DNA of 64,000 nt from a virus. Lineage: Duplodnaviria; Caudoviricetes. Position numbers and translations under genes: made by a program. The DNA lies in the IMG/VR virus record IMGVR_UViG_3300028832_002790, positions 1-64,000 of that record. One strand, given 5' to 3'. Below the pieces are notes generated by a model. The model worked only from the letters and a program-made list of their open reading frames with translations, was not told the DNA's origin and searched no databases. Below are positions 58,291 through 58,370 of the stretch, piece by piece; positions within the stretch are counted from its first letter, which is position 1, and the number at the start of each line of letters is the position of its first letter.

Positions 58291-58370
58291 TGGTCCGGGT
58301 GGAGGGATTTGAACCCCCATGTGACCAGTTAGCCTTTCTAGACCTTATAAGAGTCAGGGCATACACCCGG
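58291..58370 (-). ncRNA. D-arm-less tRNA-like RNA with TAT (Ile) anticodon loop
   Basis: 7-bp acceptor stem plus A-CCA, canonical T arm, GACT-CTTATAA-GGTC; only 7 nt where the D arm should be. Confidence 0.7.

What the first reader, a model, noticed from the sequence alone, without database searches (positions are those of the whole stretch)
58291..58370. D-arm-less Ile-UAU tRNA-like RNA with the D-loop motif moved 3' of the anticodon arm
Seen: CCGGGTG TATGCCC TGACT-CTTATAA-GGTCT AGAAAGGCTAACTGGTCACAT GGGGG-TTCAAAT-CCCTC CACCCGG A CCA. Acceptor stem, T arm and CCA are canonical. Only 7 nt occupy the D-arm slot, while a D-loop-like AACTGGT sits in the variable region, where it might still dock on the T-loop. 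Known: bacteria normally read AUA with lysidine-modified tRNA-Ile2(CAU) via TilS, and UAU anticodons are rare. ATA codons are visibly common in this phage's structural genes. Inference: either a TilS-independent AUA decoder with a rearranged architecture or a tRNA mimic.
Basis: partly seen in the sequence, partly recalled or inferred. Interest (0 to 1): 0.8.

Follow-up and report, generated by a model that had tools for sequence, protein, structure and literature searches.

The report
Phage isoleucine tRNA with permuted D-arm
This 80-base phage gene most likely encodes a working isoleucine tRNA for the AUA codon whose D-arm pieces are all present but joined in a different order from the universal cloverleaf, a conserved design found in well over 150 phage sequences and missed by the tRNA finder tested here.

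Summary
On the minus strand, 58370 to 58291 holds a canonical acceptor stem, T arm, discriminator A, CCA and a UAU anticodon arm, but no D hairpin.

It is not D-arm-less. Three bases in the D slot (GCC) pair with GGC behind the anticodon arm. A D-loop-like stretch follows directly: UA-R, GGU, then CA-Y.

I collected 163 relatives: about 125 IMG/VR phage contigs, about 35 MAG contigs and a cultured Streptomyces phage. BLAST found the same element in 49 GenBank phage records.
- The 3-bp helix pairs in 100% of 72 unique sequences, with at least 10 base-pair combinations.
- The R/Y positions covary like the Levitt pair 15-48.
- RNAalifold predicts the same fold.
- Anticodons are UAU, GAU or CAU, plus one UCG member.
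- ARAGORN finds 0 of 164. Rfam's tRNA model scores this gene exactly at threshold.

The gene ends a co-oriented tRNA cluster, 4 nt before a strong terminator. ATA makes up 31% of this phage's Ile codons.

Best reading (0.75): a functional, TilS-independent AUA-decoding tRNA-Ile whose segment 10-45 is circularly permuted, keeping the L-shape. Folding, charging and decoding are inferred.

I found no paper describing it. This scan has reported the same rewired family before on other DNA.

The parts
58291..58370 (-). Whole gene: 77-nt tRNA body plus encoded CCA (80 nt)
   Evidence: Sequence; R1 family model 89.5 bits; Rfam tRNA 29.0 bits
58364..58370 (-). Acceptor stem, 5' strand (RNA nt 1-7)
   Evidence: Pairs with 58295-58301. 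All 7 pairs show compensatory changes in the family
58361..58363 (-). U8, A9 and a conserved U (position-22 equivalent)
   Evidence: U8 and A9 are invariant and the following U nearly so in 72 sequences
58358..58360 (-). GCC: 5' strand of the covarying 3-bp helix (equivalent to D-stem positions 23-25)
   Evidence: 100% paired; 7, 29 and 28 double changes at the three pairs; at least 10 pair combinations; also predicted by RNAalifold
58340..58357 (-). C26 equivalent plus the anticodon arm. Loop 58345-58351; anticodon UAU at 58347-58349
   Evidence: The inner 4 stem pairs covary with no unpaired cases. The loop CUUAUAA is in 68 of 74 unique members
58335..58339 (-). AGAAA linker (positions 44 and 45 plus three extra A)
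   Evidence: GAAA is invariant in 72 sequences, but every scan pattern required it. The mapping to positions 44/45 is inference
58332..58334 (-). GGC: 3' strand of the 3-bp helix (equivalent to D-stem positions 10-12)
58319..58331 (-). U13 equivalent, D-loop-like segment (A14, A15, two bases, G18 G19 U20, then C, A) and CA-U48
   Evidence: UA, GGU and CA are invariant. R15/Y48 covary: GC 53, AU 15, GU 1, other 3. The nine loop bases match the D-loop of the window's own tRNA-Ile(GAU) at 7 of 9
58302..58318 (-). T arm (5-bp stem, loop UUCAAAU)
58291..58301 (-). Acceptor 3' strand (58295-58301), discriminator A (58294), encoded CCA (58291-58293)
   Evidence: A73 is in 73 of 74 unique members. All 8 canonical tRNAs scored in the window also encode CCA
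58254..58286 (-). Intrinsic terminator: 10-bp stem and T tract, starting 4 nt after the CCA
   Evidence: read directly

Best explanation
The gene encodes a functional elongator tRNA-Ile(UAU) that is not a cloverleaf.

Architecture. The acceptor stem, T arm, anticodon arm and 3' end are canonical. The segment that is normally ordered D-stem 5' strand, D-loop, D-stem 3' strand, 26, anticodon arm, 44-45 is circularly permuted. After U8-A9 come the equivalents of 22-25 (U, GCC), then C26, the anticodon arm, 44-45 plus three extra A, then the equivalents of 10-13 (GGC, U). The D-loop (A14 to A21, with G18 G19 U20) follows, and a short CA-Y48 leads into the T stem.

Why the L-shape should survive. 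The three new joints are 9 to 22, 45 to 10 and 21 to 46-48. Each links nucleotides that are neighbours in the canonical L-shape through the base triples 9-[12-23], 45-[10-25], 46-[13-22] and 21-[8-14]. The D stem can therefore still stack on the anticodon stem, and G18 G19 can still dock on the T loop. All canonical positions are accounted for, with three extra nucleotides.

Proposed life cycle. The RNA is made as the last gene of the phage's tRNA cluster. It is matured like its neighbours. Host IleRS charges it, using A73, A35, U36, A37, A38 and U20. It reads AUA without needing TilS, serving the phage's ATA-rich genes.

Shown: the conserved, covarying structure, the genomic context and the codon usage. 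Inferred: the 3D fold, processing, charging and decoding.
For: Family:
- 163 relatives with the same layout: about 125 IMG/VR contigs, about 35 MAG contigs and one cultured Streptomyces phage locus. BLAST finds the element in 49 GenBank phage records.

Structure:
- The 3-bp helix is paired in 100% of 72 unique sequences, with 7, 29 and 28 double changes.
- It takes 11 combinations: CGG/CCG, CCC/GGG, ACC/GGU, CUC/GAG, GCC/GGC (this gene only) and others.
- In a scan that did not constrain the 5' strand, 77 of the 78 tRNA-like hits pair perfectly at that offset.
- R15/Y48 covary (GC 53, AU 15) although never selected for.
- RNAalifold independently predicts the same four helices.
- The rival MFE helix shows no compensatory change.

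Identity:
- With the anticodon left free, 107 of 107 loops are N-A-U types: 98 CUUAUAA, 5 CUCAUAA, 4 CUUAUAC.
- With position 34 free, MAG members carry UAU, GAU or CAU.
- A73 is in 73 of 74 unique members.
- U36-A37-A38, the t6A determinant (PMC13276492), and A73, A35, U36, A37, A38 and U20, bacterial Ile determinants (PMC9976931, Table 1), are present.

Treated as a tRNA:
- All 274 canonical tRNAs within 1 kb of a member are on the same strand.
- Members that encode CCA have neighbours that do so (77%); members without CCA have neighbours that mostly do not (13%). Here the figure is 8 of 8.
- 0 of 38 tRNA-rich loci with a rewired UAU gene also hold a canonical tRNA-Ile(UAU).
- In the MAG arrays L360 and L376 the member lies directly beside tRNA-Ile(GAU).

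This phage:
- ATA is 20.4 per 1000 codons, 31% of Ile, and more common than ATT, at 49% GC.
- No other AUA decoder lies in the 89-kb contig.
- A strong terminator follows the CCA.

Against: - There is no direct evidence of transcription, processing, aminoacylation or decoding.
- On its own the sequence does not fold significantly better than shuffles, and its MFE uses a different helix.
- Minor E. coli IleRS determinants are absent in this gene by my mapping: G4-C69 instead of C4-G69, A29-U41 instead of C29-G41, C12-G23 instead of U12-A23, C16 instead of G16.
- How a U34 tRNA avoids reading AUG in the unknown host is open.
- The contig is only 41% complete, so another AUA decoder could lie elsewhere.
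- The Streptomyces phage Jay2Jay carries a rewired GAU member beside a canonical tRNA-Ile(GAU), so there the family is redundant rather than gap-filling.
- The 3D mapping is inference from sequence.
Confidence: 0.75

Rival explanations
1. It is a tRNA mimic or decoy that is not used in translation. For example, it could soak up a host anticodon nuclease, a tRNA-directed toxin or a modification enzyme aimed at tRNA-Ile, or act as a processing or regulatory element.
For: The non-cloverleaf layout might impair use by some translation factors. Phage tRNA clusters are known places for counter-defence (my own knowledge, not tested here). The family is nearly confined to phage-like contexts. In Jay2Jay it is redundant with a canonical tRNA-Ile(GAU).
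Against: A decoy for an anticodon-directed enzyme would not need A73, a 7+5-bp acceptor/T helix, CCA status matching the neighbours, the R15-Y48 and GG core elements, or three different Ile anticodons. No canonical tRNA-Ile(UAU) co-occurs in 38 tRNA-rich loci. The phage is rich in ATA codons.
Confidence: 0.1
2. It is a working tRNA charged with an amino acid other than Ile, or one that reads more than AUA (for example AUG as well). It would then recode or blur AUA/AUG in phage genes.
For: IleRS recognition of U34 differs between bacteria (papers on UAU tRNA-Ile cited in PMC9976931 and PMC3575796). Several minor E. coli Ile determinants are missing. The altered core could change synthetase discrimination.
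Against: A73, A35, U36, A37 and A38 are the major Ile determinants (PMC9976931). Family members with GAU and CAU anticodons share the same body, as expected of Ile isoacceptors. I saw no sign of an unusual genetic code: ORFs cover about 80 of the 89 kb under table 11.
Confidence: 0.05
3. It is a decaying tRNA pseudogene or a chance tRNA-like sequence, or it folds as the single-sequence MFE structure (anticodon-stem 5' strand paired with GGUCA) and acts as some other small RNA.
For: ARAGORN does not call it. Rfam scores it only at threshold. The fold z-score is -0.71. The alternative helix is formally pairable in 81% of cells.
Against: There are 163 relatives, at a mean of 69% identity to this gene among the 72 aligned, with compensatory changes in every helix. 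The alternative helix has no compensatory change in 4 of its 5 pairs and breaks wherever the anticodon stem differs.
Confidence: 0.03

Closest known systems
Canonical bacterial and phage tRNA-Ile (Rfam RF00005), e.g. the window's own tRNA-Ile(GAU) at 59736-59812
   Same: 7-bp acceptor stem, A73, CCA, 5-bp T stem with a T-loop, 7-nt anticodon loop with U33, A37 and A38. The nine D-loop bases are 7 of 9 identical to the neighbour's. Same strand and same cluster.
   Different: There is no D hairpin between positions 9 and 26. The D-stem strands lie on either side of the anticodon arm, and the D-loop runs straight into the T stem. There are three extra A. Rfam scores it 29 bits, against 47.8-74.4 for the window's canonical tRNAs.
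[quoted passage not shown]
   Same: Reads AUA without lysidine, so it is independent of TilS.
   Different: As far as I know those are ordinary cloverleaf tRNAs of cellular genomes. This one is phage-borne and topologically rearranged.
D-arm-less mitochondrial tRNAs, such as mammalian mt-tRNA-Ser(AGY) (PMC9427863, PMC7609411)
   Same: A short connector sits where the D arm should be. From my own knowledge, older models extend the anticodon stem by pairing the connector with the variable region.
   Different: Those have lost the D-loop and its contact with the T-loop, and need adapted mitochondrial partners. Here the G18 G19 motif, A14 and the R15-Y48 pair are all kept, so a normal elbow is expected, and the setting is bacterial translation.
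Circularly permuted tRNA genes of Cyanidioschyzon merolae (PMC3978253, PMC3728597)
   Same: The tRNA segments appear in permuted order in the gene.
   Different: There the 3' half precedes the 5' half. From my own knowledge, the transcript is circularised and cut to give a canonical mature tRNA. Here the termini are in normal order, only the inner segment 10-45 is permuted, and the mature RNA itself must be non-cloverleaf.
Engineered D-arm-less 'mini HisT' in E. coli (PMC11551756)
   Same: Shows that a bacterial synthetase, EF-Tu and the ribosome tolerate a tRNA without a standard D arm.
   Different: It is artificial, lacks the D arm altogether, and needed a pnp mutation for stability. That paper states that all known bacterial tRNAs are cloverleaf.

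Membership tests
tRNA, canonical cloverleaf (Rfam RF00005) | 7-bp acceptor stem, discriminator, 5-bp T stem with T-loop | tested here: met
   compensatory changes in the family
tRNA, canonical cloverleaf (Rfam RF00005) | Anticodon arm with a 7-nt loop, U33 and a purine at 37 | tested here: met
   Loop CUUAUAA; 4 standard pairs plus a conserved U.U
tRNA, canonical cloverleaf (Rfam RF00005) | D hairpin (stem 10-13/22-25 closing the D-loop) between positions 9 and 26 | tested here: not met
   Only 7 nt lie in that slot. Rfam's alignment deletes the D arm. ARAGORN makes no call
tRNA, canonical cloverleaf (Rfam RF00005) | Score at or above the curated gathering threshold | tested here: inconclusive
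   29.0 bits against a threshold of 29. Only 9 of 20 family members pass
   89.5 bits, E = 3e-25, full length. All motifs present
   Nine canonical tRNAs on the same strand between 55580 and 61397; 274 of 274 for the family
Isoleucine acceptor identity (bacterial IleRS determinants, PMC9976931 Table 1) | Major determinants: A73, A35, U36, A37, A38 | tested here: met
   Read; conserved in the family
Isoleucine acceptor identity (bacterial IleRS determinants, PMC9976931 Table 1) | Minor E. coli determinants: C4-G69, C29-G41, U12-A23, G16, U20, U21 | tested here: not met
   By my mapping only U20 is present. This gene has G4-C69, A29-U41, C12-G23 and C16. These determinants come from E. coli and the host is unknown
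Isoleucine acceptor identity (bacterial IleRS determinants, PMC9976931 Table 1) | Actually charged with Ile | not testable with these tools
   Needs an aminoacylation assay or charged-tRNA sequencing
D-arm-less mitochondrial-type tRNA | Loss of the D-loop and of the D-loop/T-loop contact | tested here: not met
   The GG, the U after it, A14 and the covarying R15/Y48 are retained
Circularly permuted tRNA gene (C. merolae type) | 3' half encoded upstream of the 5' half, so that processing restores a cloverleaf | tested here: not met
   The acceptor 5' and 3' strands are in normal order and pair directly

The most novel reading that the evidence does not exclude
Phages widely use a second, non-cloverleaf tRNA topology in bacterial translation: an internally circularly permuted D/anticodon domain that still folds into the L-shape. 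The rewiring itself would be selected because it makes these Ile tRNAs (and, by earlier notes of this scan, Arg and Tyr tRNAs) invisible or resistant to host enzymes that recognise the standard D arm, such as tRNA-cleaving defence nucleases, toxins or modification enzymes, while synthetase, EF-Tu and ribosome still accept them.
Probability: 0.15. Interest if true: 0.95.

Novelty: new variant of a known kind. Interest (0 to 1): 0.8.

Why it matters
The cloverleaf is treated as universal outside animal mitochondria. A 2024 paper states that all known bacterial tRNAs adopt it (PMC11551756).

A large natural family of tRNAs with a permuted core, apparently working with ordinary bacterial machinery, would be a new natural tRNA architecture. 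It would also be a natural experiment on which tRNA contacts really matter for IleRS, t6A synthase, EF-Tu and the ribosome.

There are practical consequences too:
- tRNA counts and codon-supply analyses of phage genomes are systematically incomplete. ARAGORN found 0 of 164 members. The gene is unannotated in nearly all of the listed Streptomyces phage records and labelled tRNA-Leu in phage EGole.
- The design could give orthogonal tRNA scaffolds.
- Cultured Streptomyces phages make it directly testable.

Tried and rejected
- megablast and blastn of the 431-nt region against GenBank phages found nothing for the element; only the neighbouring tRNA-Ala matched.
No read evidence was obtained and read laying was not used.
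- The alternative MFE fold is rejected for lack of compensatory change.
Across 120 family members, however, leader complementarity is about what shuffles give: mean longest match 3.8 against 3.3. I do not treat it as part of the system.
- No phage-encoded CCA-adding enzyme (PF01743) or IleRS-type synthetase (PF00133) was found in the 89-kb contig. The contig is 41% complete, so this says little.
- Neighbouring ORFs give no tRNA-related function. The downstream gene is phage endonuclease I-like, and the 431-aa ORF is an AAA ATPase.
- Gap-filling logic fails in Jay2Jay, which also has canonical Ile(GAU) and Ile(UAU).
- Pope et al. 2014 on cluster M mycobacteriophage tRNAs (PMC3958112) might mention odd tRNAs, but the paper is not held. 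The claim that the design is undescribed rests on seven full-text searches and the papers I opened.
- I built no re-permuted test sequence; the mapping to canonical positions was done by inspection only.
- I made no structure or complex prediction, because no RNA 3D tool is on hand.

Full report
**1. The observation**

The feature lies on the minus strand. Read 5' to 3' from 58370 to 58291, it has:
- a 7-bp acceptor stem;
- U8-A9-U;
- GCC, then C;
- an anticodon arm of four standard pairs and a U.U, with loop CUUAUAA;
- AGAAA, then GGC;
- a 13-nt stretch holding UA-A, GGU and CA-U;
- a 5-bp T stem with a standard T-loop;
- the acceptor 3' strand, discriminator A and CCA.

Four bases later a 10-bp terminator hairpin with a T tract begins.

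Rfam's tRNA model hits it at 29.0 bits, exactly the gathering score. The alignment deletes the D arm and inserts 18 nt in the variable region. ARAGORN finds nine other tRNAs on the same strand between 55580 and 61397, but not this one. Folded alone, the sequence is unremarkable: z = -0.71, and the MFE uses a different helix.

**2. It belongs to a large conserved family**

The window is part of an 89-kb IMG/VR virus record, estimated 41% complete. Its family-B DNA polymerase is about 32% identical to gp43 of T4-like cyanophages. No close relative is in GenBank.

I ran three pattern scans of IMG/VR and one of 185,579 species genomes, then applied structural filters. These gave 163 other loci with the same layout.
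- About 35 are MAG contigs from many phyla, several inside dense tRNA arrays.
- One is the cultured Streptomyces phage Jay2Jay.

Blastn with one family member finds the same element in 49 GenBank phage records, 45 of them Streptomyces phages such as Jay2Jay, NootNoot and Samisti12. In the 40 records listed the element is unannotated, except in EGole (two records), where it is labelled tRNA-Leu.

A covariance model built from 72 unique members (A1, R1) gives these scores:
- the window gene: 89.5 bits;
- the Jay2Jay gene: 88.1 bits;
- canonical tRNAs: 31 bits or less.

The window gene's nearest relative is 82% identical. The mean over the 72 is 69%. It is the only member in the 89-kb contig.

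**3. The structure is supported by covariation**

The three bases after U8-A9-U pair with the three bases after the GAAA linker in 100% of the 72 sequences. The three pairs show 7, 29 and 28 double changes. There are 11 combinations in all, and the window's GCC/GGC is unique among them.

My filters required this pairing, so I checked the raw hits of scan 3, which constrained only the 3' side.
- Of 120 hits, 77 pair perfectly at the fixed offset.
- One is a family member with a single mismatch.
- The other 42 are plainly chance matches in AT-rich DNA.

RNAalifold, run without my structure, predicts the same four helices, and 18 of its 19 pairs show compensatory change. The helix preferred by the single-sequence MFE shows no compensatory change in four of its five pairs and is broken wherever the anticodon stem differs.

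A tertiary signal that I never selected for also appears. The purine after UA and the pyrimidine before the T stem covary as G-C (53) or A-U (15), with 1 G-U and 3 exceptions. This is the behaviour of the Levitt pair 15-48.

The UA and the GGU are invariant. Length varies only just before the GG and just after the GGU, which is where canonical D-loops vary.

**4. Mapping to the canonical tRNA (inference)**

Every position of a class I tRNA can be assigned:

| Segment in the gene | Canonical equivalent |
|---|---|
| U8, A9 | 8, 9 |
| U, GCC | 22-25 |
| C | 26 |
| anticodon arm | 27-43 |
| A, G | 44, 45 |
| three A | extra |
| GGC, U | 10-13 |
| nine bases with the GGU | A14 to A21, including G18 G19 U20 and one 20a |
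| C, A, U | ending at 48 |
| T arm onward | 49 onward |

The count is 76 + 1 + 3 = 80 nt, as observed.

The nine D-loop bases match the D-loop of the window's own canonical tRNA-Ile(GAU) at 7 of 9. The layout is thus a circular permutation of segment 10-45, with its new start at 22.

From the established tRNA-Phe tertiary structure (my own knowledge), positions 9, 45, 46 and 21 form triples with 12-23, 10-25, 13-22 and 8-14. The three new joints therefore connect nucleotides that already touch. That is why I expect a normal L-shape. 'D-arm-less' is a misnomer: the D stem (3 pairs plus a conserved U.U) and the D-loop are present but threaded differently.

**5. Evidence that it is used as an isoleucine tRNA**

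- Scan 2 fixed only the commonest helix and linker and left the anticodon loop free. All 107 structured hits carry N-A-U anticodons: 98 UAU with A38, 5 CAU, and 4 UAU with C38.
- The genome scan left position 34 free and returned UAU, GAU and CAU. The Streptomyces phages carry GAU.
- A73 is present in 73 of 74 unique members.
- The major bacterial Ile determinants (A73, A35, U36, A37, A38 and U20; PMC9976931, Table 1) and the 36-UAA-38 determinant for t6A (PMC13276492) are present. That paper also reports D-stem contacts by the t6A synthase, and the review calls t6A37 a strong IleRS determinant. This would explain why a D-stem-like helix is kept on top of the anticodon stem (inference).
- All 274 canonical tRNA genes within 1 kb of a member are co-oriented with it.
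- CCA status tracks the neighbours. Where the rewired gene encodes CCA, 77% of neighbouring canonical tRNAs do (17 loci). Where it does not, 13% do (49 loci). In this window it is 8 of 8.
- None of 38 tRNA-rich loci with a rewired UAU gene also has a canonical tRNA-Ile(UAU).
- In the arrays L360 and L376 the member sits directly beside tRNA-Ile(GAU).
- In this phage, ATA is 20.4 per 1000 codons. It makes up 31% of Ile codons and is more common than ATT, at 49% GC. This comes from crude ORF calls covering 80 of the 89 kb.
- The other phage tRNAs (Arg-UCU, Gly-UCC, Lys-UUU, Leu-CAA) likewise match codons the phage uses heavily.

**6. What is not shown**

Minor E. coli Ile determinants are absent by my mapping. 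The host is unknown. How U34 avoids reading AUG is open. In Jay2Jay the rewired GAU gene is redundant with a canonical one, in a genome that duplicates many isotypes. The reason for the rewiring is unknown. Escape from host enzymes that read the D arm is an attractive guess, but an untested one.

**7. Comparison with what is known**

- The family works like an ordinary tRNA-Ile, but it fails the defining D-hairpin test of the cloverleaf.
- It differs from mitochondrial D-arm-less tRNAs, which have lost the D-loop/T-loop contact.
- It differs from the permuted tRNA genes of Cyanidioschyzon, whose mature product is canonical.
- It differs from the cellular UAU tRNA-Ile species, which as far as I know are cloverleaf.

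I found no description of the design in seven full-text searches and the papers I opened. The 2020 review of non-canonical tRNAs mentions neither viruses nor permuted tRNAs. A 2024 paper states that all known bacterial tRNAs are cloverleaf (PMC11551756). One possibly relevant paper (PMC3958112) is not held.

Earlier notes of this scan report the same rewired design for Ile, Arg and Tyr tRNAs on other phage DNA, and likewise found no paper. I formed and recorded my reading of a conserved family with a covarying helix before opening those notes, and I tested it independently here. I also saw one Arg-type relative: anticodon UCG, with A instead of U after the GG, which is the position-20 Arg determinant.

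**8. Verdict**

This is a real, conserved, non-cloverleaf tRNA gene. It is most likely a functional, TilS-independent AUA decoder with a circularly permuted D/anticodon domain (confidence 0.75). It is a new variant of a known kind, of high interest, and directly testable in cultured Streptomyces phages.

Noticed in passing
L003:4497-4546, L012:1782-1830, L018, L021, L007, L036 and about 60 other loci: A separate, abundant class of phage tRNA-Ile(UAU) genes has a long variable arm whose hairpin loop is conserved (CAGAUUA-like). ARAGORN of 64 of them as tRNA-Ile(tat). A class II-like Ile tRNA is not a standard bacterial type.
   Followed up: partly
L233:2864-2942: An Arg-type relative of the rewired layout: anticodon UCG, a longer linker, and GGA instead of GGU, so A sits at the position-20 equivalent, the main bacterial Arg determinant. 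It lies on the same contig as an Ile(UAU) member.
   Followed up: partly
L093:6063-6145, L046, L008:526-575, L023: Further D-hairpin-less UAU tRNA-like genes with longer linkers or a different post-anticodon segment. They suggest more variants of the rewired theme.
   Followed up: no
window 58371-58579 (minus strand): A 209-nt spacer between tRNA-Ala and the rewired gene has no ORF and no Rfam match; its fold z-score is -1.31. Its 3' end holds 8 nt complementary to the anticodon-stem 5' half of the rewired tRNA. Such leader complementarity is not a family feature.
   Followed up: partly
window 59460-59547 (minus strand): The tRNA-Thr(UGU) is 88 nt long with a long, stem-forming variable arm, which is unusual for a Thr tRNA.
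   Followed up: no
window 59566-59653 (minus strand): A tRNA-like stretch with a GCA anticodon hairpin and a T-arm-like hairpin but no normal acceptor stem. Neither ARAGORN nor Rfam calls it at threshold.
   Followed up: no
L348:2495-2571 (Jay2Jay KM652554.1 75237-75313) and L349:295-371 (EGole): The rewired tRNA-Ile(GAU) gene is unannotated in the listed Streptomyces phage records other than EGole, where it is annotated as tRNA-Leu reading UUA. It lies just downstream of a nucleotidyltransferase gene.
   Followed up: yes
whole 89-kb contig (window plus L346, L347): Codon usage is unusual for 49% GC: AGA and AGG are the commonest Arg codons, AAG is about four times AAA, and ATA exceeds ATT. 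The phage tRNA set matches the favoured codons.
   Followed up: partly
L360:478-2602 and L376:1450-4196: Actinomycetota MAG contigs hold arrays of 19-23 tRNA genes. The rewired UAU gene sits directly next to tRNA-Ile(GAU).
   Followed up: partly
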